64,000 nucleotides of DNA, taken from IMG/VR virus record IMGVR_UViG_3300045988_103846, one strand, 5' to 3'. The position numbers and the translations under genes are program-made. Shown piece after piece: positions 42,207-62,342 of this stretch (position 1 is the stretch's first letter; every line of letters starts with the position of its first letter). The notes under the pieces were generated by a model that was given only the letters and a program-made list of their open reading frames with translations, searched no databases and was not told the origin of the DNA. This DNA is from a virus.

Positions 42207-43274
42207 TTATTTCTTTCTCTTTTTAGAAAGGGTTTGGGAAAACCTTTTTCTCTTTCTTTTTTCTTTCTTTCTCTTGTCTAAGGCTGATCTCAAGCAGCTT
42301 CTCAACCAAAGCCCGATCTCATATACAGCTCCCTTTGAGAGAGCATTTCTCCCCTTGTTCAGCCAATAGGTGGGATTAGACTCATCAAACCAGACCTTGA
42401 ACCTCTTAGGGAATCCCATTATGACTCTGAACTCCTCAAGACCCATAGGCCACCCCTCTGGGTTGAACTGCCTATTTGAAGGTCTAAGAGTGAGAGGGGG
42501 AGCCCAGTTCCTGTTTCTGTATACTCCGGGGAGGGTTTTCATCTTCTGGGTTCTCATTGGCCACTTAAACTCTTGCTTGAACTTCCCATTCCATAGCTCA
42601 TGTACTTCATCTACAGTCAAAGTAGTTCTATTTGGGTCCCAATACTTGTACATTGACAGCTTTCTATCCCCCGTTTCTCGGTAGTTTAGCTCGGGTCTAA
42701 TCATCCCAGAGATGTCACAGGTAAGGAATCTTTCACGCCTCCCAGAGAAAATTCTAGAGAAATATTTTTCAAATTCAGTGGAATCAGCTCGTATTCCCAC
42801 TAATAGAAGCCTCTTTCTCGAAGTTTGGGAATTACCAAATGCCGAAACTGAATGGGAATGGACTATAAACTTGTACCCAGGCAAATTTGCTTCCCACTCG
42901 GGCAGTGGAATTAGGTCTAAGAGCTTCGGAAGATTCTCCATGACAAAGATTCTGGGTGTAAATTTTTTGACACATGACAGGAAAAGGTTCAAACATACGT
43001 CTTCACGGGGTTTCCCAAGGGTCTTTTTTCTCGAGTAAGAGAAAACAGAGCTGTGACCACAGGAGGGAGACCCCACAATCATGTCTGGGCTATCAATTTT
43101 CAGAGCATCAAGACTTTTTACAAACGGTACTTCCCCGAAATTCAGTCTCCACTGCTCTTCGTTTGGGGTATGAAACACCCCTCGAGGCTCGATGTTACCG
43201 ATCAGCCATCTTCTCAACGGGTACAGAAGAGCTCCTTGAGCTCCACAGACACCCAAAATCTTCCAGTTTTGCAT
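42207..43274 (-). CDS. DNA (cytosine-5) methyltransferase with a K/R-rich C-terminal tail
   Basis: Motif I-like KILGVCGAQGAL. Motif IV-like GSPSCGHSS (PC dipeptide context). Motif VI FVMENLPKLL (ENV-like). Motif VIII-like SQTSRKRLLLVG. Start moved to the ATG at 43274 (MQNWKILG...). The C-terminus is KRKKEKRKRKRFSQTLSKKRKK. Confidence 0.7.
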   Translation of the reverse strand: MQNWKILGVCGAQGALLYPLRRWLIGNIEPRGVFHTPNEEQWRLNFGEVPFVKSLDALKIDSPDMIVGSPSCGHSSVFSYSRKKTLGKPREDVCLNLFLSCVKKFTPRIFVMENLPKLLDLIPLPEWEANLPGYKFIVHSHSVSAFGNSQTSRKRLLLVGIRADSTEFEKYFSRIFSGRRERFLTCDISGMIRPELNYRETGDRKLSMYKYWDPNRTTLTVDEVHELWNGKFKQEFKWPMRTQKMKTLPGVYRNRNWAPPLTLRPSNRQFNPEGWPMGLEEFRVIMGFPKRFKVWFDESNPTYWLNKGRNALSKGAVYEIGLWLRSCLRSALDKRKKEKRKRKRFSQTLSKKRKK

Positions 43275-43304
43275 TGTTTCAAAAGAATTGAGTATATGAG
43301 GTAC

Positions 43305-43317
43305 AAAACTGGTCTTG
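43305..43317. repeat. 13-mer AAAACTGGTCTTG, copy 3 of 3
   Basis: Exact repeat, about 30 nt upstream of the methyltransferase ATG in the minus-strand sense. Confidence 0.8.
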
Positions 43318-43354
43318 CGAGGAGCTATTTCAATGCAAATAATCAAAATTTTCA

Positions 43355-43693
43355 ATGCAAATGAATCAAAACAGATTGAAAGTAGGGGATCCAGTGCTCA
43401 TAACAGGGTCCTTTCACTATGACAAAGCTCTGGTGGAGAAGGTAGAAAAGGGGGTTGTATACCTCAACAACGGGATGAAGATAGATCATAACTATCAGAA
43501 TCTCCAGAGATCTGAGTGCACCGCTCAGCCTTGGGATGAAGCAGAGTGGGAATACCAGAGGGCTATGCACTCTTATAAGAGCAATCTCACTATCATTCGG
43601 GACAATTTCCCTGCTCTGGAGAAGCCCTATGCTATCGGGATCAACCAGAAGCTCGAGAAGATAATCAATAAGTATGGCTTCAAACACATGTAA
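43355..43693 (+). CDS. hypothetical protein (112 aa), first gene of the plus-strand operon
   Basis: ATG ORF, 2-nt gap to the next gene. Confidence 0.6.
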   Translation: MQMNQNRLKVGDPVLITGSFHYDKALVEKVEKGVVYLNNGMKIDHNYQNLQRSECTAQPWDEAEWEYQRAMHSYKSNLTIIRDNFPALEKPYAIGINQKLEKIINKYGFKHM

Positions 43694-45352: not shown

Positions 45353-45757
45353 AGAAGATTCAGAGGGATCCTGGATATCCAGTTGGGCAATGAATAAAAG
45401 TCATCGGGACTGGATAGAATTTCTCAGGGTATGGGGCATTCTTAGGGGGTCCAAGTGATTCTTTAGATATATTGCTAAGGGTTTACTAGTAAAAATATTT
45501 ATTCTATTCTGGGAGGTCCTCTGGGCTTCCCTTTCTTGTTGAATAAGGAACAGGGTTTATAGGGCCCATTACCATTGGGTAGCGGAGAGATGTGGTAATA
45601 TTCTAACTTCGGGTCTAAGTCTCTAGAGGATGTGGTATAAAGCTTCTTTGTGTGTTAGTCGGTGTTCAGCGGGTCCGTATAGCTCGTCGGAGGTCAGGTA
45701 GCCCATTACTATAAGTGCCTAAACACCAGGCAGTTAGAGGGGGGGACGGTTCCCCAT

Positions 45758-45786
45758 AAATGAAAAATCCCCTATAAAAATAGGGG
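45758..45786 (-). terminator. rho-independent terminator (weakly bidirectional) ending the AT-rich island operon
   Basis: The minus strand reads CCCCTAT tttt ATAGGGG followed by ATTTTTCATTT. It lies 29 nt past the stop at 45815. Confidence 0.7.
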
Positions 45787-45814
45787 GACTTCTTTATGAA
45801 ACATTTTGAAACTT

Positions 45815-46168
45815 TTAGGCGTTGCCATCTATCATTTCATCAGAGAATAACTCCTCAAAAGGGGAAAAAGTTATTTCGCTTTCCCACGTTTCAAAAAATG
45901 TTTCAAAGTTTTCATTTTTCAAAAAATGTTTCATAGTTTCTTCTGTTTCATTTGGGTATAAAGTTTCAAAATTGGATTTCATTTTCATACCCATAAAGAA
46001 AGCATATCGGGCAAGTCTTGCAATATATTGACTTAAAGCATTTTCTTTGTTGTCAACTGAAAAATACCAAAAGTATAAAGCAATTTTTCCGATTTCAGAA
46101 TCTGAAACATTTTTCAGAGAAGTAATTACATCTGAAATTAGTTCAACATCAAATTTTTTTATTTTCAT
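45815..46168 (-). CDS. hypothetical protein, AT-rich island
   Basis: Start moved to the ATG at 46168 (MKIKKFDVELISD...). F/E/N/K-rich. Confidence 0.5.
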   Translation of the reverse strand: MKIKKFDVELISDVITSLKNVSDSEIGKIALYFWYFSVDNKENALSQYIARLARYAFFMGMKMKSNFETLYPNETEETMKHFLKNENFETFFETWESEITFSPFEELFSDEMIDGNA

Positions 46169-46430
46169 TTTTCTTTCGGTTTTGGATTTGAAACATTTGA
46201 AACTTTTGAGTTGAAACATTCAGAATCTCTTTGTAATGCTTTTTAATTAATTTATTCAAGCATTTTTGTATAGTTATATCTCTAACCCTATTTTCTTCAA
46301 GTTCCTTTTTTAATTCGGGAGTCTCGAAAAAATCGTCAGAATATACCAACCCTTTGAAAAAAGATACTGAAATTAACGTATCAAGAAAATTTTCAAATTC
46401 TTGATAATTTTCAAATTTTGGAATTACCAT
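46149..46430 (-). CDS. hypothetical protein, AT-rich island
   Basis: The track's start is a TTG inside a hairpin. The first ATG is at 46430 (MVIPKFENYQEF...). Confidence 0.5.
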   Translation of the reverse strand: MVIPKFENYQEFENFLDTLISVSFFKGLVYSDDFFETPELKKELEENRVRDITIQKCLNKLIKKHYKEILNVSTQKFQMFQIQNRKKNENKKI

Positions 46431-46445
46431 GGGAAAAAAGTTTAT

Positions 46446-46480
46446 AAAGGGGTTGCGCAACCCTTTGCAACCCCTTTTTT
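46446..46480. terminator. strong hairpin with flanking A/T runs (bidirectional terminator/attenuator) inside the AT-rich island
   Basis: AAAGGGGTTGC (46446-46456) pairs with GCAACCCCTTT (46467-46477). It is followed by more T on the plus strand and preceded by A-runs. It sits between the stop at 46484 and the ATG at 46430. Confidence 0.55.
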
Positions 46481-46483
46481 ACC

Positions 46484-46864
46484 TTACTTTGTTGTCGTCA
46501 ACTCTTTGCGGAGAATTTGGGTAAATGTGGCTAAATCTGCCAATTTGTCCGTACTCGTATTGCTTTCGTACACCGTGAAAATATCCTTGTAAATTCCCGT
46601 TGCATACTCTTTCCAAGTTTGGCACAAACTTTTACGCTTTTCTTCGTTTTTTGTTGAAAGCATTTCAGAAACGAAATTGTCGCGATTATTGCGCAATTTT
46701 TTTCGCATGGCTTTTCTTTCCTTTTCAGTTTTTCCCGAAAAGATTTCCAAACAGTAAATAGATTCTTTTCGACTTGCGGAAATTATTCCATTTGACGCTA
46801 ACAAATTAAATTTTGCCGTCATATCCACTTTTGTAGGTGTGGCTACTTTTTTATCATTTGTCAT
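46484..46864 (-). CDS. K-rich protein, family C paralogue 1 (island copy)
   Basis: The first ATG is at 46864 (MTNDKK...). ...KERKAMRKKLRNNRDNFVSEM..KNEEK...WKEYATGIYKDIFTVYESNT aligns with 52457..52900 (...KKAKRRELRHTLASYVSKY..KNKDDK...WTSYAKETYRDINKLFESNT). Confidence 0.6.
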   Translation of the reverse strand: MTNDKKVATPTKVDMTAKFNLLASNGIISASRKESIYCLEIFSGKTEKERKAMRKKLRNNRDNFVSEMLSTKNEEKRKSLCQTWKEYATGIYKDIFTVYESNTSTDKLADLATFTQILRKELTTTK

Positions 46865-46920
46865 ATTATTAATTTTTAGCAAAATGACAGGTAATTTCTT
46901 ACAACTTTTTTAAGTCTTTT

Positions 46921-46960
46921 ATAAGTAGGTTAAAATTACCTAATTAAAAAACCTACTTAT
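46921..46960. repeat. 11-bp perfect inverted repeat upstream of the island operon
   Basis: ATAAGTAGGTT (46921-46931) ... AACCTACTTAT (46950-46960), with an 18-nt spacer. Confidence 0.85.
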
Positions 46961-47633
46961 ATAATGACAATGTAGCCGATATATAGGGTTACTTTTAGAC
47001 AATACGCCTAATTTCACGTATGGTATATTATACCCTTATAATAACATATTTTTCAAACTTGTCAAAGAACTTTTCAACCCCCTCAACCTTACGACGACAA
47101 AGATATGGCGACTTTTTATTTCTTGCAAATTTTCTGATTAATTTTATCAAAATTTGAAGTTAATAGCCCTTACAGATATTTCTAAAGCATTATTTTTTTA
47201 GCCGACTTTCAAATTTGATACGCAAAATCTAAAACCATTTAATATAAAAATCGTTTTAAGAGTATAAAATATTTTATAAACACCATTTGTTTTTTGTTTA
47301 ATAAAATTTTACTAAATATTTTATAATATTTTAATAAAAAGTTTAATTTGGAAAAGTTCCGAATTTGGAATGACTATAATTTTTGGGAGGGACAAAAGTT
47401 GGCCGGGGTGCGTTGAGTTGGTGGTCCCAGCCGTGTATGTATTCTACGTCTGTGGCCATGTTACCAGTCCTAAAGTTGGACGGTATGTGCATGACGTAAT
47501 GAAATATGGCCATTGTAGCGCAGTAATGTATACTTATGCTATGGCCATGTTACCCGGTACGTATGGTAATATTACTCTAGTAATGAGTTAGATGGCTTCT
47601 GAAAGCGCTATGGGAATCTTACCTGTGGGAATC

Positions 47634-47830
47634 AGATAGCGAATTAGCCAAATAGTGTCAGATAGGCCTTTAGGCCATATAAGATAGCGCTATAGATAGC
47701 CATTTATGCTAAACCTATTTTTAACCTCTACAAAGGGCCTCTTAGAGGTACGTAGAGAATGTTGCTATAAGCGCGTAAAGAAAAGGCCCTATGTGTAGTA
47801 GGGCCTAGATAGCTAGTTAGCGAATTAGCC
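47634..47830. repeat. iteron-like short direct repeats (AGATAGC x4, plus one AGATAGG variant at 47660-47666; TAGCGAATTAGCC x2)
   Basis: AGATAGC at 47634, 47682, 47694 and 47807. TAGCGAATTAGCC at 47637-47649 and 47818-47830. TGGCCATGTTACC occurs at 47452 and 47542, just upstream. Confidence 0.8.
47771..47806 (-). terminator. rho-independent terminator after the A1-B1 cassette
   Basis: The minus strand reads AGGCCCTA ctacaca TAGGGCCT followed by TTTCTTTAC. Confidence 0.7.
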
Positions 47831-47832
47831 TG

Positions 47833-48204
47833 TTAGCATTCCAGTTGGAATATGGCCAGATGGACCTCCCGTAGGGTGTAACAGTCTATGAATAGGTTGT
47901 CATCGTCCAGTAGTTCCCGTATTCCTTTGACCGTTCGGTAAAAGTCCCCACTGGTTTCAGTGTTGATCTTGAAGGCAAAGCCCCAGAGGGAATCGTCGTT
48001 ATCCTGAGTAGTTTCCAGATGGATATCCAGGATCTGGATATCGGTCCTGTTCAGTAGATCTGGATCCCCATATTGAAGGAGAAGATCGAAGTAACCAGGG
48101 TCTTCTGTATCTCCCGTGTAGATGTGACCTTCGCAAGTTTTGTTCTGTTCCAGGTATTTGCCGATTGTGATGAGCTGTTCCGAGAATGTTGCATTTGTTT
48201 TCAT
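47833..48204 (-). CDS. acidic small protein, family B paralogue 1 (123 aa)
   Basis: Start at the ATG at 48204 (MKTNATF...). Shares EDPGYFDLLLQ..DP, IQILDIHL, LLDDD and the terminal QLEC with 50676..51074 (ENPGYFDGLLQ..DP, IQILDIHL, LLDDD, QVEC). Confidence 0.65.
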   Translation of the reverse strand: MKTNATFSEQLITIGKYLEQNKTCEGHIYTGDTEDPGYFDLLLQYGDPDLLNRTDIQILDIHLETTQDNDDSLWGFAFKINTETSGDFYRTVKGIRELLDDDNLFIDCYTLREVHLAIFQLEC

Positions 48205-48239
48205 GATATGTATTGTTTTTAGAGGGCCCTTGGTTTGAC

Positions 48240-48800
48240 TTAGAGAATGATGCAAGGTGCATATTCGTTGAAGTTGCTGTTGAGCCCCGTTTCCCAGTTA
48301 GTTATCGTTGTATCGATTTGGGCATACTTTGGGATCAGGTTGTCGTAGAGTTCCGTCCAGGTTTTGAGTGGAAGTTCCTGTAGAGCTTTCTGAATGGTAG
48401 CATTGTTGGAGTTTGTTAGTGCCTTAAGCATAGAGAAGAAAGCATCGATTCCGTTAGGGATATAGTCGAAGCATTCGTTATCTGTGAATGCAGTGAGAAT
48501 CCCCCTGATGAGATTTGCGAAGGCTTCTGTGATGAAGAGTTCCAGTGTTCCTGTGTAACCATCCTTGGTATTGATGGAGTAGACCCTGAAGTTTTCGAGG
48601 GAGTAGTCTTCCAGTAACCTTTGAACTGTTTCAGTTCCGATTTGGGTTTTGAGAGCATCCAGATTGGCATCATTCGCCAGTCTGATAGAGTTGAACTGAG
48701 TAACCATTGGATCGAAATCCTGATTGTTGCAGTTGATCTGCATGAATGTAACTTGTTGCATAACGTTTGTGTGTTTTGAGTTGTTGTTAGTATGTTGCAT
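48240..48800 (-). CDS. acidic small protein, family A paralogue 1 (186 aa)
   Basis: MQHTNNN... N-terminus, then FMQINCNNQDFDP, LRVY-type strand and ECFDYIPNGIDAFFSML...W..LYDN. Aligns with four other ORFs. Confidence 0.7.
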   Translation of the reverse strand: MQHTNNNSKHTNVMQQVTFMQINCNNQDFDPMVTQFNSIRLANDANLDALKTQIGTETVQRLLEDYSLENFRVYSINTKDGYTGTLELFITEAFANLIRGILTAFTDNECFDYIPNGIDAFFSMLKALTNSNNATIQKALQELPLKTWTELYDNLIPKYAQIDTTITNWETGLNSNFNEYAPCIIL

Positions 48801-48856
48801 ATTGCATTTAATTTTATTTATGCAAATATAATAATAATATATTGCAATGCAAAAGG
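48801..48856 (-). promoter_or_regulatory. early promoter copy (P1)
   Basis: The minus strand reads CTTTTGCATTGCAATATATTATTATTATATTTGCATAAATAAAATTAAATGCAAT-ATG, i.e. TTTG, a 19-nt spacer, then TATATTTG. Positions 48794-48852 (59 nt) are identical to 51648-51706. Confidence 0.65.
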
Positions 48857-49848
48857 GCCGCCAACAGCTCTACCGGAGCTATTTTTAACCCTATAAAATA
48901 AGCCTCAAAGAGGAAGATTTTAGGGGTACGTAGTGTAATTATATCCTCGGTAAGTTGGGAATTTCTAGGAAAGTTGGGCAATATTACCTCTATGGTAAGT
49001 TTACCTTAGGGTATATTGGTAGGGCCCAAAGGCTTTAGTGGCCTATACAATTCTTACTAAACTTTATTCTAGACCTACCCTATGTAGTTGAGCCCTGGCG
49101 CTCATTTGTTGAGCTAGATGAACAAAGGCCAAAAGGCTCAATCTCCTGGAGCCCTGTGGAGTCCCAGAGTCGCGCTAAACTCACTTTTGAGACTCTCTTA
49201 CTTTTACCATACGTAAATACCTTAAATTAACACGTAGCTTTTTAACCAACAGCATTATATATAGGGGGAAGCTCCTAAAGGCCTTTTTTGACTTCGTGTT
49301 CATTTCCATAGTAACTTAGCTAGCGTTTTGGCTCTTCTACAAAAATTACAAATTTTTCAATTTTAGCTCTCCACGGCTTTCGCTATCTCGTAACAGAGCA
49401 CTTCCGGATCTCCCCGTTCGCGGATGGCCGGTGCCGCCTGACGTCTACCCCATTTGACTAATACTTCCTCCCAATCTGACAAGAAAATTACTAATAAAAA
49501 ATTACCCACAGAATGAACAAAAGAGAAACTGACCAACTACATACTTTGAAAGTGAGAAGGTAAGGAAAGAAAGAAAAGAGTATAGTGTTAATGTATTGTA
49601 TTTCATATAGAGGAGTATAACGTATAGCCCCTTTATGTATATGTATATGTATATAATGTATACGTAGCCTTGTGTTAGTGGCTTTTATATAATTGTTTTG
49701 TTTTTTGGGGTGAGGGGGGTTTTTGGGATATGTGTATACGCCAGAAGAGAGATACCTTTATGGAAGTATCTCTCTTAGTTTTAGGGTTAGAAGTCTTCTG
49801 AATATATTGTAACCCCTAGTTTTAGTCATAGGTTACTGGTGTGCTTCT
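48857..49848. other. about 1 kb with no ORF of 60 aa or more in any frame; hairpins, short repeats, a GC-rich patch
   Basis: The ORF track is empty here. See the findings for the internal structure. Confidence 0.8.
49635..49661. repeat. hexamer tandem repeat (ATGTAT)3 plus one further copy
   Basis: atgtat atgtat atgtat ata atgtat. Confidence 0.85.
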
Positions 49849-50100
49849 TTAGCTAGAGTATTGGAATGAGAAAGCTTGATAGACTATTCCATCGATGTAT
49901 TTGAGATAGACAGTAGCTTGAATGGAATTGTTGAAATAGACGGAGTCTAGAGAATAATAAGAGTCTAGATGGAGCATTCTTAGCCAGGTCTTTATTTGAT
50001 CCTCTAGGAGCAGTAGATTCTTGTTGTAGAAGAATCTTTGGGTTGCTTGTTGGAGAATCCCTAGCCTGTCCTTTATTGATAGTGTGAGATAATGTTTCAT
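49849..50100 (-). CDS. hypothetical small protein (83 aa)
   Basis: ATG ORF, 11 nt after the stop of the upstream family A gene. Confidence 0.5.
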   Translation of the reverse strand: MKHYLTLSIKDRLGILQQATQRFFYNKNLLLLEDQIKTWLRMLHLDSYYSLDSVYFNNSIQATVYLKYIDGIVYQAFSFQYSS

Positions 50101-50111
50101 TATTTGTGTTT

Positions 50112-50609
50112 TTAGAGTTTTACCATCGGTGTGTGAAAGGGAGAGAATTCGTAATTGAGTCCCATGTGCCAGGTTTTAATCTCGTTTGTCTCTAGATCGT
50201 CCCCGTATTTTTGCATTACGGTATTGTATACTGTTGCCCAGATAGGATCATCTGGAGAATACTCCAGAGTCTGGAGAATAGTGAAGAAGTCTTCGATTTG
50301 GGATGGAATGAAGTCTATCCTGTAGTCATCGTTATCATGTTGAGTGATGATTGCATCAATGATTAAGGTAAAGGTTGTAGCCAGCCATTTATCGAAGTCT
50401 ATACATTTGATTGTGTAGACCCTTAGGTCTCCCTCAATGAGAGTATTTTTGATATCTTGGATATCGTCCGGGTTTACTTTGGAGAAGAATGTTTTGAGTT
50501 GTTCTTCGTTTGGTAATGTTACCTCGGCATGACAGTTGGCTTTGGGGTCGAAGTCCCTGTTGCAGCAGTTAAGCTGCATAAAGGTGATGTTGTTGTTTGT
50601 GTGTATCAT
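50112..50609 (-). CDS. acidic small protein, family A paralogue 2 (165 aa)
   Basis: MIHTNNNITFMQLNCCNRDFDP...LRVYTI...IDFIPSQIEDFFTIL... Confidence 0.7.
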   Translation of the reverse strand: MIHTNNNITFMQLNCCNRDFDPKANCHAEVTLPNEEQLKTFFSKVNPDDIQDIKNTLIEGDLRVYTIKCIDFDKWLATTFTLIIDAIITQHDNDDYRIDFIPSQIEDFFTILQTLEYSPDDPIWATVYNTVMQKYGDDLETNEIKTWHMGLNYEFSPFHTPMVKL

Positions 50610-50675
50610 AATGTTTTATTTTTGGTGTTTTTTGGGAGGGGGCTAGAGGGATTGGGACTAGCCCCCTGGTATATA

Positions 50676-51074
50676 TTAGCATTCGACTTGGATTATGATA
50701 TATCCTGAGTCTAGCAAGACTCTGTGATCTATTGCAACTGAGTCATCGTCCAGGAGATCTCTTAGACTATAGAGGTAGTCTGGTATCAAGTCTGGATCAT
50801 TTGTTGGATTCGGGATGTAGAATGCAAATGACCAGCAGCTTGAGTATGGTGGATTTGGATATGTTGGGATATCCAGGTGGATGTCCAGAATCTGGATATG
50901 GTCATCGTCCAGGATATTGAGTTCAGGTATATCCGGGTTGTAGGGGTCTTGGAATTGGAGTAGTCCGTCGAAATAGCCCGGGTTCTCTGAGTCAAAGGTG
51001 ATGATTGTGCATTCTGGGTGTTGTGCTTGTAATTCGATTCCCCAGTCTTTGAGTTGTTTTCTGAGTGTTTTCAT
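50676..51074 (-). CDS. acidic small protein, family B paralogue 2 (132 aa)
   Basis: See 47833..48204. By hand count about 24 D/E versus 6 K/R. Confidence 0.65.
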   Translation of the reverse strand: MKTLRKQLKDWGIELQAQHPECTIITFDSENPGYFDGLLQFQDPYNPDIPELNILDDDHIQILDIHLDIPTYPNPPYSSCWSFAFYIPNPTNDPDLIPDYLYSLRDLLDDDSVAIDHRVLLDSGYIIIQVEC

Positions 51075-51123
51075 GATTTATTGAGTTTTGTGGAGCCCTT
51101 TGTTAGAGGGCTCCGAGTTTGAC

Positions 51124-51654
51124 TTAGATAATGATAGCAGGGAAATCGAATTCAGCTTTGAGCAGTGATTCCCATGTTGGAAGGTCCGTGTCGATGTAGC
51201 GATAAGTCCCTCTGCCTGGGTGACCGAATGTTTCCATATAGGCATCGTAGAGTTTCCCGTAGAGATCCAGATTTATTTGAGGGATATACTGGATTTGGGA
51301 TTGGATCAGCACCTGCAGTATTGATGAGAATTCATAGATTCCGCATGGGATATCGTCGAAGCAGGTATCGTCCCCTGAGGCAGTGAGCAGATCGTGCATG
51401 AGATTGGAGAAGACTTCGTTGAGGAAGTTTTCCAGTGTGAAGGAGAATTCGAGATGAATGGTGTAAAGGTGGAATTCCTCGATTTCGCAGTCAGCAGGCA
51501 AGAATTTGTCTGGGGTGTTGACCCGTTCCTTGTAGAGATGGAAGAGTTCCGGGGTGAGTTCCTCTGATTGAGAGTATTTGGTATTGAACCAATGGGTTTC
51601 GCCCGTGTAGTTATGGGCAATGAGTTTGATTGTGTTTTTGTTTGTGTGTTGCAT
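51124..51654 (-). CDS. acidic small protein, family A paralogue 3 (176 aa)
   Basis: MQHTNKN...FHLYTI...TCFDDIPCGIYEFSSIL...LYDAYM... Confidence 0.7.
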   Translation of the reverse strand: MQHTNKNTIKLIAHNYTGETHWFNTKYSQSEELTPELFHLYKERVNTPDKFLPADCEIEEFHLYTIHLEFSFTLENFLNEVFSNLMHDLLTASGDDTCFDDIPCGIYEFSSILQVLIQSQIQYIPQINLDLYGKLYDAYMETFGHPGRGTYRYIDTDLPTWESLLKAEFDFPAIII

Positions 51655-51710
51655 ATTGCATTTAATTTTATTTATGCAAATATAATAATAATATATTGCA
51701 ATGCAATGGG
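51655..51710 (-). promoter_or_regulatory. early promoter copy (P2), identical to P1
   Basis: 59-nt identity with 48794-48852. Confidence 0.65.
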
Positions 51711-51716
51711 GCCCCG

Positions 51717-52031
51717 TTAGAGCTTCTCGCAGAGCTTTTCGGGAAAGTTAATTATGAATTTGTATTCCCCGAGTTCTAGATTCTCTTTGAGGCCGTTTTG
51801 GCGGGTTATTTTGATATACTTAGTAAAGGTATCTATATTCCCGTGACAGATATAGAGGAAAGTATTGTACTTCACCTGGTGTTCAAGTAGATCTGCATGA
51901 TCTGGATTAGACTGAGTGAACTTGAGAATGAAGACCATTTGGTGACCCTGTCTCTTAGAGTGATATCTGAAGTTGAGACCCCATTTCTTGAAATGGGAGA
52001 TCCAGCGTTGCACTTTTGTAGTGAAATACAT
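51717..52031 (-). CDS. hypothetical small protein (104 aa)
   Basis: ATG ORF, 4 nt after the upstream stop. Confidence 0.5.
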   Translation of the reverse strand: MYFTTKVQRWISHFKKWGLNFRYHSKRQGHQMVFILKFTQSNPDHADLLEHQVKYNTFLYICHGNIDTFTKYIKITRQNGLKENLELGEYKFIINFPEKLCEKL

Positions 52032-52035
52032 ATTC

Positions 52036-52401
52036 TTAGTCTTTTGAGTGTGTCCAATTTATGAATAGTATATGATCACTTTCGTCATATTGAAAGACAA
52101 GAACCTCCTGGTGTCCCTTGTAACTACCGTAAATAAAGGTAATTTTTCGAATCATCTCGAAACTGTCCCATTGGAATTTCTTATGAGTATGGCCTGCATA
52201 AAAGGTCTTCTCCAGAATAGTTTTGAAGTGATCCCTAATGAAGTCTACTGTAGGGTTGTCGGGAATATCAGTGATATACCAGGTAGTGTCTTTGATATCA
52301 TAAAGAAAGCTCTTTATCTTAGCTCCCTGGAGTTGGCATATCTCCTGTAGTTTCTTAGTGAGATATATTTCTCTGTCTAGATTAGTTGGAAGATTGTACA
52401 T
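52036..52401 (-). CDS. hypothetical small protein (121 aa)
   Basis: ATG ORF. Confidence 0.55.
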   Translation of the reverse strand: MYNLPTNLDREIYLTKKLQEICQLQGAKIKSFLYDIKDTTWYITDIPDNPTVDFIRDHFKTILEKTFYAGHTHKKFQWDSFEMIRKITFIYGSYKGHQEVLVFQYDESDHILFINWTHSKD

Positions 52402-52456
52402 AGCTAGCGATTTTAAGTTTGGGGGAGGGGTTGCCTCCCCCTGATGAGTCCCCGAT

Positions 52457-52900
52457 TTACTTTGTCATGGCCTTGAGAAAGCGGTTGTATGCTTCTTGGT
52501 TTTCTTCCTTGGTATTGGATTCGAAGAGCTTATTGATGTCCCGATAGGTTTCCTTGGCATAGGAGGTCCAGTCTTTCTTGAGTTCTTGGATAGCCTTGTC
52601 ATCCTTGTTCTTGAGAGCTTTGTCATATTTGGAGACATAGCTGGCAAGGGTATGCCTGAGCTCCCTGCGTTTGGCTTTTTTCTGCAGTGAGGTGAGGCCA
52701 GCCATTACCTGATCGGTGTAGACTGATACCCTGACGGATTTTACCTTGGTCTCTTTCTTGGCCTTGGTCTCCTTTGTTGGGGTGTCGGCTGCTTTTGCAG
52801 TTACTTCCTGGATAGAGTTTTCCAGTGTCTCAGTGTTGATGAGTTCGGCCTTTTGTGTTTTCTGGGTCTTAGCCTTGACCTGTTTCTTTGTTGTTTTCAT
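52457..52900 (-). CDS. K-rich protein, family C paralogue 2 (147 aa)
   Basis: Lys-rich N-terminal half. The C-terminal half aligns with 46484..46864. Confidence 0.6.
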   Translation of the reverse strand: MKTTKKQVKAKTQKTQKAELINTETLENSIQEVTAKAADTPTKETKAKKETKVKSVRVSVYTDQVMAGLTSLQKKAKRRELRHTLASYVSKYDKALKNKDDKAIQELKKDWTSYAKETYRDINKLFESNTKEENQEAYNRFLKAMTK

Positions 52901-52930
52901 GATGTGTAATATTTAGTATTAGTACTTGAA

Positions 52931-53470
52931 TTAATCTTGGATGAAGATAGCAGGCATATCTGGTATAGTGGTCATTCCCTGTTCCCAGGTGAGAAACCCT
53001 GTTCCGATGTAGTTTGGACTTGTCTCGTCATCCGGGTCAAAGGATTGCATATATGTGTTGTAGAGATTAGCCCAGAGATTGAGATCGCATTCGGGTAAAG
53101 CTTTCTGAATATCGGGATTGTCAGATTCCTTGAAAGCCCGGAGCACTGAAAAGAATTCCTCGATAGCACTTGGGATGTAGTCAAAGCATTCATCGTCTCC
53201 GACAAAGGTAACCAGATCTTTGAGAAGGTTACCGAAAGCTTCATGAAGAAAGATGTCAGCTGCCCAGGATGTACCGTGTATCTCATAGACTGATAGACAT
53301 TCGGTTCCCATTATTTCGAGCCTTTCGAGCTGTTCCTTGTTGAGTCTAGCCTTGTAGAGTTCAAGTTGTTCTGAGTTTGGGAACCCCTGGATTGTAGTAC
53401 TTGTGCAAAGGAGATATGTCTCCCCGTTGTTTGCATTGAAGCTGATGAATTTAGTGACTGTGTTTTGCAT
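52931..53470 (-). CDS. acidic small protein, family A paralogue 4 (179 aa)
   Basis: MQNTVTKFISFNANNGETY...LSVYEI...ECFDYIPSAIEEFFSVL...LWANLYNTYMQ. By hand count about 29 D/E versus 9 K/R. Confidence 0.7.
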   Translation of the reverse strand: MQNTVTKFISFNANNGETYLLCTSTTIQGFPNSEQLELYKARLNKEQLERLEIMGTECLSVYEIHGTSWAADIFLHEAFGNLLKDLVTFVGDDECFDYIPSAIEEFFSVLRAFKESDNPDIQKALPECDLNLWANLYNTYMQSFDPDDETSPNYIGTGFLTWEQGMTTIPDMPAIFIQD

Positions 53471-53540
53471 AAAATTTATTAATTTTTAATTTGCAATGCA
53501 AATATAATAAGGAAGTTGCTCTAGTTATTGAGAGCTGCTA
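53471..53540 (-). promoter_or_regulatory. early promoter copy (P3, long form)
   Basis: The minus strand reads GCAGCTCTCAATAACTAGAGCAACTTCCTTATTATATTTGCATTGCAAATTAAAAATTAATAAATTTT-ATG. Confidence 0.65.
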
Positions 53541-53786
53541 TCATAGCTGCTTGAGGAGCTCATCTAGCTCATTTTCTAGCATTGTCACCCTCTCTTTTAG
53601 AACTCGATCTGTTTTACATTGGAAACAATCATATTGATACCTTTTACAGTATTTATTCCCATTCTTTTTCAGGTAGTAGAATGCTGCACAATATCTCGTG
53701 GATAAACGTTCCCTCTCATAAAGTACTAATTGCTGTGCTGCTAATTGAAATACCTGAGAAACGCATTTTCTTTCTTCGGTAGTCAT
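53541..53786 (-). CDS. hypothetical small Cys-containing protein (81 aa)
   Basis: ATG ORF. YCKRYQYDCFQCK. Confidence 0.5.
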   Translation of the reverse strand: MTTEERKCVSQVFQLAAQQLVLYERERLSTRYCAAFYYLKKNGNKYCKRYQYDCFQCKTDRVLKERVTMLENELDELLKQL

Positions 53787-53790
53787 ATTC

Positions 53791-54033
53791 TTATACCATT
53801 TCTAGCCATTCCTTTGCAAGAGCCTCAGTGTTGAAATCTTGGATTATGAGCATGATGTTAGTGTTGTCCCAAGCAGTCCAGGCATCACTCTCTGGGTCAT
53901 AGTGATAACCTTTCTGATAGCCCGGTTTGAGAGTTTTGATGTCTCTATCCTTATCCAAGAATCGTTCCCGGATAAGGTGTTCCAGTCTTTTTTGTGAGGC
54001 TTTACCTCTCAGTATTTGTACCCGTGTTTTCAT
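53791..54033 (-). CDS. hypothetical small protein (80 aa)
   Basis: ATG ORF overlapping the upstream gene by 32 nt. Confidence 0.5.
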   Translation of the reverse strand: MKTRVQILRGKASQKRLEHLIRERFLDKDRDIKTLKPGYQKGYHYDPESDAWTAWDNTNIMLIIQDFNTEALAKEWLEMV

Positions 54034-54331
54034 CTTCGATGATGTTTAGAGCAAATTTAGTTATGACCCTGATCTGAACCCTGAGACCCGCAAGATAGAC
54101 TTTTACTGTCTTGCCTTCTGAGAAAGCCTGAGCAGCAATTGTAGCACCCAATTCTGAAAGCCTTTGGTCTAGATCCTTAAGAGCAATTTCTGGATTCTCA
54201 TCGTCCCAGAGTCCCAAGTTTGAAGATACATCCTGGAGAACTTCCTTTGGAAGGATTCCGATTCCCTGTGCCAGGTTCATATATGTCCAGAGCCTGTCTT
54301 GGTAGTTGAGTTTTGATTTGAATGTGATCAT
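54002..54331 (-). CDS. hypothetical small protein (109 aa)
   Basis: Start moved to the ATG at 54331 (MITFKSKLNYQ...). The track's extension is a translation of the promoter copy. Confidence 0.55.
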   Translation of the reverse strand: MITFKSKLNYQDRLWTYMNLAQGIGILPKEVLQDVSSNLGLWDDENPEIALKDLDQRLSELGATIAAQAFSEGKTVKVYLAGLRVQIRVITKFALNIIEDENTGTNTER

Positions 54332-54400
54332 AATGTTTATTAATTTTTTAATTTGCAATGCAAATATAATAGGGGAGTTGCTAGGGTTATCGAGAGCTCC
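54332..54400 (-). promoter_or_regulatory. early promoter copy (P4, long form)
   Basis: The minus strand reads GGGAGCTCTCGATAACCCTAGCAACTCCCCTATTATATTTGCATTGCAAATTAAAAAATTAATAAACATT-ATG. Its distal part overlaps the last codons of 54387..54887. Confidence 0.65.
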
Positions 54401-54887
54401 CATCTGAAGCTCTAATCAGGGTATAGCAAAACCTTTTTGCATCCCCAGGAGCCATCTCTATGGTATAGGGCATAAGCTCCTCATTAGCATATAACCTGAG
54501 CTGATTGTTACGAGGTTTCTCGATAACTTGAGCAGGACCAATACCACATAGGTCTCCAGGAAGAATCTCGTCAGCTTCTAAATAGAGAGCGAACAGTTCT
54601 TCCTTCTGTTTCGGGAGAAGCTGCAGAATGAATTCATCATCGGTTCTGAGTATGCACCTCCGGTATCGTCCCAAGAAATCTTTGATGAAGATGCGATTGT
54701 AGTGAGCATTGAAGCTGAATCCCAGTTTATCATCTCCATAGAAGTAGATAGCACCTTCGATAGAGTTCTTATAGAAGCCCTTAAGAGGAGTATAGAAAGG
54801 ATTTCCCGTAAAAGAAATATTGATGAATACGGTGCCTGAAAGCTTTGGATCAAGCAGTGCATTGAGAATTTGTTTTGGTGTTGCCAT
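54387..54887 (-). CDS. hypothetical protein (166 aa)
   Basis: ATG ORF. Confidence 0.55.
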   Translation of the reverse strand: MATPKQILNALLDPKLSGTVFINISFTGNPFYTPLKGFYKNSIEGAIYFYGDDKLGFSFNAHYNRIFIKDFLGRYRRCILRTDDEFILQLLPKQKEELFALYLEADEILPGDLCGIGPAQVIEKPRNNQLRLYANEELMPYTIEMAPGDAKRFCYTLIRASDGSSR

Positions 54888-54928
54888 GTTGTTAAAAGTT
54901 TTAAGGGGATCTTAAAGACCCCCTTGGA

Positions 54929-55444
54929 TTAATAAAGTAAGAAAGCTGGGAATCTTGGTGTCTGATTCATCCCCTGTTCCCAAGTGAGGATATCAGTGTC
55001 GATGTATCCCGGAGCTTTTTGCATATAAGTATTGTAAATACTAGCCCAGAGATCAAGATTGCATTGAGCAAGCCCCTCCCTGATGTTAGGGTTATCTGAC
55101 TTGCTAAAAGTCTGCAGCACTGAGAAGAATTCTTCAATAGAAGCTGGAAGAAAGTCCTCCCGTTCATCTTCCCCGAAAGCCCCGATTAATTCTTTGAGAA
55201 GATTACCGAAAGCTTCCTTGATAAAATCTTCGATAGCATAAGGTCTAGAACCCTGGAGAAGTTCATAGACTGAGAGGCACTCTGGATCAAATTCTTTGAG
55301 CTGTTCTGGAGTGAGTTTAGCTAAGTAGAAATCGATCTGATAAGAATCAGGTCTTCTTTTAAGCGAATTCCCCGTGACAAGGGTGAAAGTATCCATGTTG
55401 CAGCTGTTGAAGCTGATAAACCAGACTAGATTGTTGTTTTGCAT
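54929..55444 (-). CDS. acidic small protein, family A paralogue 5 (171 aa)
   Basis: MQNNNLVWFISFNSCNMDTF...LSVYEL...EDFLPASIEEFFSVL...LWASIYNTYMQ. Confidence 0.7.
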   Translation of the reverse strand: MQNNNLVWFISFNSCNMDTFTLVTGNSLKRRPDSYQIDFYLAKLTPEQLKEFDPECLSVYELLQGSRPYAIEDFIKEAFGNLLKELIGAFGEDEREDFLPASIEEFFSVLQTFSKSDNPNIREGLAQCNLDLWASIYNTYMQKAPGYIDTDILTWEQGMNQTPRFPAFLLY

Positions 55445-61791: not shown

Positions 61792-61826
61792 AAAATCATG
61801 ACCTAAAGAACCGTTGGCAAAAAGAA

Positions 61827-62258: not shown

Positions 62259-62342
62259 AGCATTTGAAAATTTGAGTTGTGTTAATTTGAAGCCCCGGTG
62301 TTTTAAGCCGGGGACATTATTCCATAGTGAAAGGAGAATTTA

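What the first reader, a model, noticed from the sequence alone, without database searches (positions are those of the whole stretch)
48857..49848. A 1-kb stretch with no ORF of 60 aa or more in any frame, containing nested stems, a GC-rich patch, a hexamer repeat and a G-run
Phage genomes are normally densely coding, yet nothing of 60 aa or more is open here on either strand. The region contains the following elements.

- 48880-48935: a 50-nt element, CTATTTTTAACC..GCCTC..AGAGG..TACGTAG, repeated from 47714-47753.
- 48952-48992: direct repeats AAGTTGGGAAT / AAGTTGGGCAAT. AGTTGGGCAAT also occurs at 45392-45402.
- 49088-49141: nested complementary segments. TTGAGCC pairs with GGCTCAA, enclosing TTTGTT and AACAAA.
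- 49395-49450: a distinctly GC-rich patch, CCGGATCTCCCCGTTCGCGGATGGCCGGTGCCGCC, which includes a C(UUCG)G-type tetraloop motif.
- 49635-49661: (ATGTAT)3 plus one further copy.
- 49703-49727: TTTTGGGGTGAGGGGGGTTTTTGGG.
- 49745-49776: a perfect 11-bp hairpin followed on the plus strand by AGTTTTAG. This would fit termination of a plus-strand, antisense-oriented transcript.

Candidate explanations are one or more structured non-coding RNAs, a replication origin, or decayed cassette copies.
Basis: seen in the sequence. Interest (0 to 1): 0.65.

Follow-up and report, generated by a model that had tools for sequence, protein, structure and literature searches.

The report
Conserved non-coding spacer in gut phage
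A 1-kb gene-free stretch in an uncultured Bacteroidota gut phage is real and is kept under selection in related phages, but it shows no sign of a folded RNA or a dead gene, and it most likely acts as a DNA control site such as a replication origin.

Summary
The gap is real. Window 48801-49848 is the longest ORF-free stretch in the window, and no stop-codon recoding, tRNA or Rfam family explains it. Nine close relatives keep a gap of about 1.07 kb at the same place. Its promoter-proximal 540-600 nt (about 48861-49470) diverges 1-7% between relatives, while the adjacent gene differs at 4-14.5% of synonymous sites. Indels are 1-2 nt. So this half is non-coding and constrained.

The other half (about 49470-49848) holds the ATGTAT repeat, the G-run and a polypyrimidine tract. 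It is fast-evolving low-complexity spacer plus terminator-like hairpins.

Structured RNA is not supported. Folding z-scores are near 0 on both strands in three lineages, and substitutions break predicted pairs more often than they preserve them. A decayed cassette or pseudogene is not supported either.

Two more distant lineages (TerL about 74% identical in the one measured) have an equivalent gap. The only detectable shared sequence is an inverted repeat, GAACACGTAG...TATATATA...CTACGTGTTC (window 49228-49301). This 10-mer occurs nowhere else in the 64 kb.

Best reading, held with modest confidence: a one-per-genome cis-acting DNA site, probably a replication origin or a regulatory platform. 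A weakly structured RNA is not excluded.

The parts
48823..48853 (-). Bacteroidota-type early promoter of the downstream 186-aa/123-aa operon (TTTG, 19 nt, TATATTTG). It marks the lower boundary of the gap.
   Evidence: An 84-nt block at 48776-48859 recurs 93% identical at 51630-51713, and similar blocks precede other early cassettes. TATATTTG matches on the minus strand at 48823, 51677, 53499, 54361, 55473 and further sites. The block is conserved in all relatives.
48866..48880 (.). Short GC-rich hairpin AGCTC(T)-loop-(G)GAGCT. On the plus strand it is followed by ATTTTTAACC.
   Evidence: The terminator scan lists it on the plus strand. The stem is kept in relatives despite loop changes.
48879..48940 (.). 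An element of about 55 nt (CTATTTTTAACC .. GCCTC-AAA-GAGG .. GGTACGTAG), partly repeated at 47715-47758. The two copies flank the 186-aa/123-aa cassette as direct repeats.
   Evidence: Local alignment. The L041 A-to-G change in the CCTC/GAGG hairpin keeps pairing only as G-U on the minus-strand RNA (by inspection).
48861..49470 (.). Conserved non-coding core, constrained relative to synonymous sites.
   Evidence: The 540 nt at 48861-49400 are 95.4-97.4% identical between L001 and four relatives. The adjacent 186-aa gene is 92-94% identical and the 83-aa gene 67-77%. Pairwise core divergence is 0.011-0.068 against pS of 0.042-0.145. Only 1-2-nt indels occur. The upper limit of about 49470 was read by eye from the alignments.
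48974..49003 (+). Plus-strand promoter-like site: TTGG, 18 nt, TAAGTTTA. The -7 box is a perfect TAnnTTTG (TAAGTTTG) in most relatives.
   Evidence: Regex scan of the gaps and alignment column showing T in L001 and L030 and C in the others on the sense strand. This is a consensus match only. The chance of such a match in 1 kb is not negligible.
49088..49141 (.). Nested complementary segments (TTGAGCC/GGCTCAA and TTTGTT/AACAAA) with repeated GCTCAA / GGGCTC words.
   Evidence: Sequence. One variable column (C/T in GGCC/GGCT, L041) across nine relatives, so there is essentially no variation to test pairing. Local folding z is about -1.1 to -1.7.
49228..49301 (.). Deeply conserved inverted repeat. 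TAACACGTAG (49228-49237) and CTTCGTGTTC (49292-49301, the reverse complement of GAACACGAAG) flank ATTATATATAG (49254-49264). This is the only sequence shared with the two distant lineages.
   Evidence: Found by comparison with L019 and L026. Pattern scans recovered L026, L030, L032, L036, L039, L041 and L047. The 10-mer with at most 1 mismatch occurs only here in the 64-kb window, and only in the equivalent gaps of the other loci that carry it. The L026 lineage has a third, direct copy, and a fourth weaker copy seen by eye.
49395..49450 (.). It is the most variable part of the core.
   Evidence: Two linked haplotypes occur (GCGGCA/GTGCGA, GG/AT/AG, C/G, C/A). L002 has a 7-nt replacement of AGATAGC. 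CpG observed/expected is 0.9-1.2 for windows starting at 49201-49401, against 0.45 genome-wide.
49540..49610 (.). Tract that is polypyrimidine on the minus strand and polypurine on the plus strand.
   Evidence: A block of about 30-37 nt is inserted or deleted between L001 and its relatives. CT-rich tracts occupy the same relative position in L019 and L026.
49635..49727 (.). ATGTAT microsatellite (49635-49661) and G-run (49703-49727). Both are low-complexity and indel-prone.
   Evidence: Relatives differ by 4- and 6-nt copy-number changes and by variable C-run lengths. Several short contigs start inside this region (L004, L010, L011).
49745..49836 (.). Two hairpins just downstream of the 83-aa gene's stop codon (that gene ends at 49849 on the minus strand). 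One is the 11-bp perfect stem 49745-49776. The other is GTAACC/GGTTAC at 49809-49836. The word TAGTTTTAG follows the first stem and lies in the loop of the second on the plus strand.
   Evidence: inverted repeat I5, direct repeat D16. Local z is -3.3 to -4.75 on the sense strand. The U-rich tail is present only on the plus strand, by inspection.

Best explanation
What the region is. It is a non-coding intergenic control region in the early-gene array of an uncultured gut phage with Bacteroidota-type promoters. The phage's gene order fits the published description of 'Flandersviridae'. The region has two parts.

Distal third (about 49470-49848). This part holds terminator-like hairpins that close the upstream operon, followed by fast-evolving low-complexity spacer: C/G runs, an ATGTAT microsatellite and a polypyrimidine tract.

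Proximal part (about 48861-49470). This part is a selectively constrained, one-per-genome cis-acting DNA element. Its invariant heart is a pair of inverted 10-bp sites, GAACACGTAG, centred about 64 bp apart around a TATATATA tract.

Inferred mechanism. A sequence-specific DNA-binding protein, phage or host, recognises these sites. The surrounding conserved DNA provides further lineage-specific contacts. The most likely role is a replication origin, where an initiator binds next to an easily melted AT tract. The alternative role is a master regulatory or insulator site between two early operons.

Shown: the region is non-coding, it is constrained, the 10-mer sites are unique to it, the sites do not covary, and there is no RNA-structure signal.

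Inferred: protein binding and the origin function.
For: - Non-coding. No ORF of 60 aa or more, no rescue by recoding, and indels of 1-2 nt only. The small ORFs of 34, 42 and 57 aa are frameshifted in relatives.
- Constrained. Core divergence is 0.011-0.068 against pS of 0.042-0.145 in the adjacent gene, over 21 pairwise comparisons. pS in other neighbouring genes is 0.08-0.24.
- Retained. All nine close relatives keep the gap. Two further lineages, L019/L039 and L026/L036/L047, have a gene-free gap of 0.8-1.0 kb in the same layout upstream of an early promoter.
- Shared sequence. The only sequence shared across the three lineages is the inverted repeat, and the arm sequence is identical in all three, so there is no covariation.
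- Extra copies. The L026 lineage carries further direct copies, TGAACACGTATTCA.
- Uniqueness. The 10-mer with at most 1 mismatch occurs only in this gap in the 64 kb, and only in the equivalent gaps elsewhere.
- RNA structure is disfavoured.
- CpG is retained here (O/E about 1) in a genome with CpG O/E of 0.45.
- GC skew changes sign locally at 49.0-49.5 kb.
Against: - There is no experimental or read-depth evidence for replication initiation here.
- This lineage has only two copies of the site, and L001, L030 and L041 carry a T-to-A mismatch in one arm. That is a weak iteron array.
- The AT tract between the arms is only about 10 bp.
- No recognisable initiator gene lies next to the region. 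Neighbouring proteins have no informative Pfam or PHROG hits.
- Another gene-poor stretch, 46883-47832, is more AT-rich (GC 21-29%) and carries AGATAGC repeats, so it is a competing origin candidate.
- In the L026 lineage the whole gap is only mildly constrained: 8.6-10.4% divergence against pS of 0.03-0.21.
- Eighty more distant relatives (TerL 55-74% identical) show no trace of the element within 10 kb of TerL. It is therefore not universal in the family.
- Promoter-like and terminator-like signals on the plus strand leave room for an RNA product.
Confidence: 0.4

Rival explanations
1. The region is a non-coding RNA gene or a long untranslated RNA with little stable structure. One version is a plus-strand RNA of about 780 nt, running from the promoter-like site at 48974-49003 to the hairpin and U-run at 49745-49784, convergent with the upstream operon. 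The other version is a minus-strand 3' UTR or RNA of about 600 nt, ending at the small hairpins at 48866-48913.
For: - A plus-strand -7 box that is a perfect TAAGTTTG in most relatives, with TTGG 18 nt upstream.
- The plus-strand hairpin at 49745-49776 is followed by AGTTTT(T)AG, conserved or improved in L002 and L003.
- In relatives only, a sense-strand site TTTG-N19-TAATTTTT sits just upstream of the conserved core.
- The L041 substitution in the CCTC/GAGG hairpin is tolerated only as G-U on the minus strand.
- The minus strand is G-rich relative to C across 49000-49500.
- A high density of constrained sites over about 550 nt is more typical of an RNA than of a set of separate binding sites.
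Against: - No Rfam family matches.
- Folding z-scores are about 0 or positive through the core on both strands in three lineages.
- There is no covariation, and most variable predicted pairs are broken.
- L001 itself lacks a perfect -7 box on either strand.
- The promoter-like sites are not found at equivalent places in the other two lineages.
- The inverted-repeat arms are conserved in sequence and do not covary.
Confidence: 0.3
2. The region is neutral spacer, and its high similarity between relatives reflects recent recombinational exchange of this block between phage genomes, as happens at mosaic module junctions, and not purifying selection.
For: - The neighbourhood is clearly mosaic. The 83-aa gene next door is only 67-77% identical.
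- The 165-aa paralogue is present only in the window's own contig (L001) among the five loci with called genes here (L001, L002, L003, L006, L008).
- The 126-aa gene has pS of about 0.84 while its neighbours have about 0.1.
- In the L026 lineage the whole gap diverges at about 0.6 of the mean neighbouring pS.
Against: - Core divergence is below the adjacent gene's pS in all 21 pairs compared, not only in some.
- A gap with the same layout, and the same 10-bp inverted repeat, persists across lineages whose other intergenic sequence is unalignable.
- CpG is retained against the genome-wide trend.
Confidence: 0.12
3. The region is a decayed gene or cassette copy (a pseudogene), or it encodes one or more small proteins.
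For: - The flanks are arrays of paralogous cassettes.
- Two short ORFs, 49080-49184 on the minus strand (34 aa) and 49118-49216 on the plus strand (32 aa), are intact in all six full-length relatives compared. They lie in nearly invariant sequence, so intactness is uninformative.
Against: - No similarity to any window ORF at the DNA or protein level.
- No similarity to 9906 ORFs from related loci, beyond self-hits.
- Stops of all three kinds lie in all six frames.
- The 34-, 42- and 57-aa ORFs are frameshifted in relatives.
- The region is non-coding in three lineages.
Confidence: 0.06
4. The region is a DNA packaging or genome-terminus site (pac, cos or a terminal repeat).
For: - The site is unique, one per genome, with an inverted repeat.
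- One unrelated-looking phage contig (L048) has the same arms in a non-coding region that follows a 154-aa ORF and precedes small ORFs and 509- and 796-aa ORFs. I read these by eye as terminase small subunit, terminase large subunit and portal, and did not check them against any library.
- Several assemblies break inside or near the gap.
Against: - The element lies 7-8 kb from the terminase genes.
- By my own knowledge of phage taxa, the more distant GenBank matches of TerL (29-36% identity) are mostly T4-like phages, which package by the headful without a fixed site; the three closest records (67-69%) are uncultured gut phages.
- The assembly breaks fall in the microsatellite, a trivial cause.
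- The L048 match may be chance: I estimated about 28 random hits for that pattern, and about 15 of the 23 hits look random.
Confidence: 0.07

Closest known systems
Iteron or inverted-repeat replication origins of phages and plasmids (for example lambda ori, SPP1 oriR, plasmid oriV)
   Same: A unique, non-coding, one-per-genome element. Repeated short sequence-specific sites, 2 here and at least 3 in a sister lineage, sit next to an AT tract. The element is conserved in sequence and does not covary. CpG and GC composition differ from the flanks.
   Different: There are only two inverted sites in this lineage, the AT tract is very short, and no adjacent or overlapping initiator gene is recognisable. 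No functional data exist. The constrained block of about 550 nt is larger than most such origins.
Transcription-primed origins (T4 oriF/oriG, the T7 primary origin, ColE1 RNA II)
   Same: A promoter-like site points into a non-coding region that contains an AT tract, a downstream G-run and a hairpin. The host phage has T4-like terminase affinities.
   Different: The promoter-like site is imperfect in this genome and is not conserved in the other lineages. The G-run is on the opposite strand in the L026 lineage. No R-loop evidence exists. This comparison rests on my own knowledge of those systems and was not tested here.
Large phage-associated non-coding RNAs in Rfam (for example GOLLD and ROOL)
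   Same: Size class (0.5-1 kb), location in a phage genome, and absence of ORFs.
   Different: No match to any Rfam model, no excess folding stability, and no covariation. Those RNAs are highly structured.
Intergenic terminator-promoter junctions of this phage's own early cassettes
   Same: The two ends of the gap look like ordinary junction parts: hairpins after the upstream stop codon, and a hairpin plus the standard TTTG..TATATTTG promoter block before the next gene.
   Different: Ordinary junctions here are under 100 nt. This one carries about 900 nt of extra sequence, much of it constrained.

Membership tests
Any Rfam RNA family (structured ncRNA, riboswitch, ribozyme, intron, tmRNA) | Match to a covariance model at or near the gathering score | tested here: not met
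   No hits at gathering thresholds over the whole window. In the E-value search of 47000-50500, the only hits were miRNA/snoRNA models on low-complexity sequence, plus one weak MS2-operator match at 49910-49948 (E = 1.9), outside the gap. No hits in the equivalent gaps of L019 and L026. No tRNA or tmRNA.
Structured non-coding RNA (generic) | Folding energy significantly below dinucleotide shuffles | tested here: not met
   Whole gap: z = -0.79 on the minus strand and -1.91 on the plus strand. Conserved core, 704 nt: z = +0.63. 150-nt windows through the core are mostly 0 to +1.9 in three lineages. Only the terminal hairpins and the windows holding the inverted repeat fall below -2.5.
Structured non-coding RNA (generic) | Compensatory base-pair changes across relatives | tested here: not met
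   RNAalifold on seven full-length relatives. Sense strand: 213 pairs, 1 covarying, 13 one-sided, 22 with broken members. Antisense strand: 197 pairs, 1 covarying, 10 one-sided, 17 broken. Power is low because there are few substitutions.
Iteron-type replication origin | Several copies of a short sequence-specific site clustered in a non-coding region and unique in the genome | tested here: inconclusive
   Two inverted copies here, one of them mutated in L001. The L026 lineage has three copies at one mismatch or fewer and a fourth weaker one. None occurs elsewhere in the 64 kb.
Iteron-type replication origin | Adjacent AT-rich unwinding element | tested here: inconclusive
   An ATTATATATAG tract of about 10 bp lies between the arms in all three lineages. 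GC in 200-nt windows across the gap is 0.30-0.455, lowest (0.30-0.35) around 49500-49800. There is no extended AT-rich block like the one at 46900-47400.
Iteron-type replication origin | Replication demonstrably starts there, or an initiator protein binds | not testable with these tools
   Needs marker-frequency analysis, cloning for autonomous replication, or binding assays.
Bacteroidota primary-sigma promoter | -33 TTTG and -7 TAnnTTTG, 17-23 nt apart | tested here: not met
   No exact TAnnTTTG on either strand between 48857 and 49848 in this genome. Near-matches: TTGG-N18-TAAGTTTA on the plus strand, which is a perfect -7 box in L003 and L008, and TTTG-N19-TAATTTTT on the sense strand in relatives only.
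Intrinsic terminator | GC-containing hairpin followed by a U-run on the transcribed strand | tested here: inconclusive
   The plus-strand hairpin at 48866-48880 with ATTTTTAACC passes the scan.
Pseudogene or decayed paralogous cassette | Residual DNA or protein similarity to an intact gene in this genome or in relatives | tested here: not met
   BLASTN and TBLASTN against the rest of the window gave only chance-level hits. TBLASTN of 9906 ORFs from related loci gave only self-hits from homologous gaps and noise at E of 0.001 or more.
Small-protein gene | ORF intact and in frame across relatives | tested here: not met
   The 34-aa ORF (49502-49606), the 42-aa ORF (49181-49309) and the 57-aa ORF (49363-49536) all change length by non-multiples of 3, or by +3 with other frame changes, in relatives. 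Two ORFs of 32-34 aa are intact but lie in nearly invariant sequence.
'Flandersviridae'-like gut phages (host genome context) | Collinear structural block with BACON-domain proteins, then DnaB helicase and DnaG-type primase, then a locus of about 20 kb of unknown small ORFs, with a Bacteroidota host | tested here: inconclusive
   TerL, protease, major capsid protein, Baseplate_J, tape measure, BACON, DnaB_C and Toprim were found in that order. The promoters are of Bacteroidota type. The family description comes from PMC8008677. No phylogeny with named members and no polA check was done. The genome is about 71 kb, against a family median of 85 kb.

The most novel reading that the evidence does not exclude
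The conserved core is transcribed as a phage non-coding RNA of about 0.6-0.8 kb that belongs to no Rfam family. One version couples this to replication: a promoter fires across the GAACACGTAG/TATATATA element towards the G-run and hairpin, making a transcription-primed origin of a kind not yet described for Bacteroidota phages.
Probability: 0.2. Interest if true: 0.6.

Novelty: new member of a known kind. Interest (0 to 1): 0.35.

Why it matters
These gut phages are reported to be common in human gut viromes (PMC8008677), and relatives found here also come from pig-gut samples. They are uncultured, and nothing is known about how they replicate or time their gene expression. A unique, selectively constrained non-coding block with a deeply conserved 10-bp inverted repeat is the best available candidate for their origin or master control site. 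It gives a concrete target for binding assays, for reading replication from metagenomic read depth, and for building vectors if a host is found. This work also removes a tempting false lead, because the region is not a large structured RNA and not a pseudogene.

Tried and rejected
- Stop-codon reassignment (TAG, TGA or TAA read-through). No long frame opens.
- Rfam at gathering and E-value thresholds on this gap, the other non-coding stretches and two homologous gaps. Nothing credible. ARAGORN found nothing.
- BLASTN of 47500-51000 against GenBank phages. No match.
- Protein-anchored searches of IMG/VR with the two flanking genes. No relatives.
- Two exact core patterns in IMG/VR. No hits.
- The inverted-repeat pattern in GTDB genomes. 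Only three GC-rich hits in unrelated bacteria (Nevskia, Armatimonadetes, Dokdonella) that I judged chance from the organism names, without reading the loci.
- nhmmer with the gap profiles against MT121964 and 80 IMG/VR relatives. Only promoter-block matches or nothing.
- TerL-anchored contigs at 80-89% identity (L014-L018). These end just upstream of the terminase genes, so they did not reach the gap.
- DnaA boxes. Not enriched: 18 found against 18 expected, with one 1-mismatch site in the gap.
- Genome-wide search for the palindrome TGAAYACGTRTTCA. One 2-mismatch site falls in the gap (49289-49302, the mutated arm). The count is modestly above chance (15 against 7 expected), but the other sites are scattered through the genome.
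- The AAGTTGGG motif as a general signal. Not enriched.
- Compensatory reading of the linked substitutions in the GC patch. One candidate G-C to C-G swap sits next to a disruptive change, so it is not convincing (inspection).
- Cumulative GC skew. There is a broad minimum at 32-48 kb, too flat to place an origin.
- ACGT avoidance. It is explained by general CpG depletion and is not specific.
Full report
**Context**

The window is most of a phage contig of about 71 kb (ena:ERZ27296286:k119_80815). Nearly all genes lie on the minus strand. In order they are:
- TerL, head protease and major capsid protein.
- Tape measure, Baseplate_J and BACON-domain proteins.
- A DnaB-like helicase and a Toprim primase.
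- A long array of small unknown ORFs at 45.8-64 kb.

That array consists of paralogous cassettes. Each is preceded by a nearly identical block of 60-90 nt carrying TTTG, 19 nt, TATATTTG. From my own knowledge this is the Bacteroidota primary-sigma promoter pattern (-33 TTTG, -7 TAnnTTTG).

The gene order fits the published description of 'Flandersviridae', gut phages of Bacteroides and Parabacteroides with a locus of about 20 kb of unknown ORFs (PMC8008677). I did not test membership phylogenetically. The nearest GenBank record is MT121964, from human faeces, with TerL 69% identical. Relatives come from pig and human gut samples.

**The observation**

The stretch 48801-49848 has no ORF of 60 aa or more on either strand. 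It is the longest such stretch in the window: 1048 nt, against 487 and 462 nt for the next two. Read-through of any single stop codon does not open a long frame. Gene callers on public assemblies also left the region empty.

- The third AGTTGGGCAAT copy is at 45381-45391.
- The repeat shared with 47714-47753 is partial.

Being ORF-free is simply what non-coding sequence looks like. In a shuffle test, 198 of 500 shuffles also lacked such an ORF. The interest therefore lies in the length of the stretch and in its conservation.

**Conservation**

Homologues of the adjacent 186-aa protein (about 90% identical) led to contigs of close relatives. All of them keep a gap of about 1.07 kb at the same place. 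A later DNA-pattern scan added three more close relatives.

The gap divides into two parts.

The promoter-proximal part is well conserved.
- The 540 nt at window 48861-49400 are 95.4-97.4% identical to L001.
- For comparison, the 186-aa gene is 92-94% identical, the 123-aa gene 86-88% and the 83-aa gene 67-77%.
- Over 21 pairs, core divergence is 0.011-0.068, while the adjacent gene differs at 0.042-0.145 of synonymous sites.
- Other neighbouring genes have pS of 0.08-0.24.
- Indels in the core are 1-2 nt long.
- By eye in the alignments, this conserved core extends to about 49470.

This part is therefore non-coding and evolves at roughly a third of the synonymous rate.

The distal part (about 49470-49848) is different.
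- The polypyrimidine tract, the ATGTAT microsatellite and the C/G runs change by indels.
- Several short contigs break there.
The 42-aa and 57-aa ORFs are frameshifted too.

**Not a pseudogene**

The gap has no DNA or protein similarity to the paralogous cassettes or to anything else in the window. It has none to 9906 ORFs from more than 100 related loci, apart from self-hits.

**Not a recognisable or stably folded RNA**

- Rfam gives nothing credible here or in the homologous gaps.
- Folding energies are ordinary: z = -0.79 (minus strand) and -1.91 (plus strand) for the whole gap, and +0.63 for the conserved core on the sense strand.
- 150-nt windows through the core are mostly between 0 and +1.9 on both strands in all three lineages. 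Only the terminal hairpins and the inverted repeat stand out.
- In RNAalifold consensus structures of seven relatives, variable pairs are mostly broken: 22 broken against 1 covarying on the sense strand, and 17 against 1 on the antisense strand.
- The linked substitutions in the GC-rich patch form two haplotypes, and by inspection they do not fit a compensatory scheme. L002 has replaced 7 nt of it.

Statistical power is limited by the small number of substitutions. This is absence of support, not disproof.

**Deeper relatives**

TerL homologues are numerous: 2158 with E below 1e-100. One contig with TerL 74% identical (L019) has a gene-free stretch of about 1.0-1.26 kb upstream of an early promoter.

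Global alignment showed one clearly shared piece: GAACACGTAGT, 40-55 nt containing TATATATA, then GCTACGTGTTC. Scanning public collections for that pattern found:
- An IMG/VR contig, L026.
- Metagenome contigs, among 23 hits of which about 15 look random.

These define three lineages: the window's own; L026/L036/L047; and L019/L039. All three share the same layout:
- upstream gene;
- hairpins and C/A-rich sequence;
- AT-rich ATACAT-type repeats;
- a CT-rich tract;
- a complex core;
- the inverted repeat;
- a further 240-330 nt;
- an early promoter.

Apart from the inverted repeat, and the promoter block at the downstream boundary, nhmmer and BLASTN detect no similarity between the gaps of different lineages. 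Eighty further IMG/VR relatives (TerL 55-74% identical) have neither the repeat nor any similarity within 10 kb of TerL.

**The inverted repeat**

In window coordinates the arms are 49228-49237 (TAACACGTAG, plus strand) and 49292-49301 (GAACACGAAG, minus strand), flanking ATTATATATAG.

- The arm sequence is the same in all three lineages, including a few flanking bases (AAT(T)GAAC...). There is no covariation.
- L001, L030 and L041 tolerate a T-to-A mismatch in one arm.
- The L026 lineage has extra direct copies, TGAACACGTATTCA, which are nearly palindromic 14-mers.
- The 10-mer with at most 1 mismatch occurs nowhere else in the 64-kb window. In the other loci it occurs only inside the equivalent gap.
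- GTDB genomes gave only three GC-rich hits in unrelated bacteria, which I judged chance from the organism names.

A sequence-conserved, non-covarying, one-per-genome site argues for recognition of the sequence itself, most simply by a DNA-binding protein.

**Other features**

- CpG is depleted genome-wide (O/E 0.45) but not for windows starting at 49201-49401 (O/E 0.9-1.2).
- GC skew reverses locally at 49.0-49.5 kb.
- DnaA boxes are not enriched.

**Transcription signals**

No exact TAnnTTTG lies inside the gap in this genome.

Most relatives have a perfect -7 box, TAAGTTTG, on the plus strand at 48996-49003, with TTGG 18 nt upstream. L001 and L030 have an A at the last position.

About 780 nt downstream lies the 11-bp hairpin at 49745-49776. 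Relatives, but not L001, also have TTTG-N19-TAATTTTT on the sense strand just upstream of the conserved core. These sites are not found at equivalent places in the other two lineages.

On the minus strand the gap ends with small hairpins (48902-48913 and 48866-48880) just before the next promoter. An RNA product on either strand therefore remains possible.

**Verdict**

The finding is a genuine, selectively maintained non-coding region.

I favour a DNA-level, one-per-genome cis element built around the GAACACGTAG/TATATATA inverted repeat (confidence about 0.4). It is most likely a replication origin, and otherwise a regulatory or insulator site between early operons. The distal third would then be terminator hairpins plus disposable low-complexity spacer.

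The rivals, in order:
- A weakly structured RNA on either strand (about 0.3).
- Recombinational homogenisation of neutral spacer (about 0.12).
- A packaging or terminus site (about 0.07).
- A pseudogene or small-peptide gene (about 0.06).

None of the functional steps is shown. Read-depth profiles, strand-specific transcript maps and binding assays would decide.

Noticed in passing
window 45353-45814: A second ORF-free stretch of 462 nt lies between the plus-strand gene block and the low-GC island. It is G-rich on the plus strand (GC skew about +0.3). It has no Rfam hit, and its folding z is -1.1 (plus strand) and -0.5 (minus strand). It starts with a perfect 12-nt palindrome, CTGGATATCCAG, next to the third AGTTGGGCAAT copy.
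   Followed up: partly
window 45815-47400: A low-GC island (24-38% GC) with CpG O/E above 1, in a genome where CpG O/E is 0.45. It carries three small minus-strand genes and an AT-rich upstream region. Its 126-aa gene has pS of about 0.84 between relatives whose other genes have pS of about 0.1. This suggests a different evolutionary history for the island.
   Followed up: partly
window 47634-47830, and 49379-49388: AGATAG(C/G) occurs five times on the plus strand within about 180 nt (47634, 47660, 47682, 47694, 47807), together with two copies of TAGCGAATTAGCC. One inverted copy, AGATAGCGAA on the minus strand, sits in the gap's GC-rich patch, exactly where relative L002 has a 7-nt replacement. 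This could be a second protein-binding motif linking the two non-coding regions.
   Followed up: no
window 47715-47758 and 48879-48940: The 186-aa/123-aa cassette, with its promoter and terminator, is flanked by direct partial repeats of about 55 nt. The cassette may have been inserted into a non-coding region that was once continuous.
   Followed up: no
window 47833-55444 and beyond: The early region is built of paralogous gene pairs (a 186/176/165/179-aa family and a 140/132-aa family), each with nearly identical promoter blocks. Among the loci with called genes here (L001, L002, L003, L006, L008), the 165-aa copy at 50112-50609 is present only in the window's own contig (L001).
   Followed up: partly
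whole window; methyltransferase gene 42207-43355 (minus strand): There is strong genome-wide CpG depletion (O/E 0.45), and the phage encodes a C5 DNA cytosine methyltransferase (PF00145). Deamination at methylated CpG could explain the depletion. The few regions that retain CpG are the non-coding ones, plus a few coding stretches with O/E 0.85-1.13 (around 8.0, 16.8, 41.9, 59.7 and 62.2-62.4 kb).
   Followed up: no
window 61826-62704: Long imperfect repeats of TCTTCCTCC-type units on the plus strand. If read on the minus strand (not checked) they would encode a highly acidic Glu/Asp-rich low-complexity protein segment.
   Followed up: no
TerL homologues P0032, P0058, P0070, P0099 and others: Many relatives have TerL proteins of 820-850 aa carrying intein and homing-endonuclease domains (PF14890, PF07463, PF13392). 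The window's TerL, at 495 aa, has no intein.
   Followed up: no
L021 and L022 (TerL 99% identical); their ends correspond to about window 47885: Two independent assemblies of near-identical phages end at the same point, just downstream of the 123-aa gene. Contigs L014-L017 all start 115 nt upstream of the 218-aa gene that precedes TerL (the counterpart of the window's 224-aa gene, presumed small terminase). These recurrent break points suggest strain-variable or repeated sequence there.
   Followed up: no
L048 (OCZT010001525.1), reverse strand 2345-2833: A phage contig of different appearance has the same GAACACGTAGTC ... GCTACGTGTTC arms in a non-coding region of about 490 nt. An ATACAT-rich run lies just upstream. 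The region sits between a 154-aa ORF that looks like a terminase small subunit by eye (not searched against any library) and a block with 509- and 796-aa ORFs. This could be chance, or a sign that the site is used more widely.
   Followed up: partly
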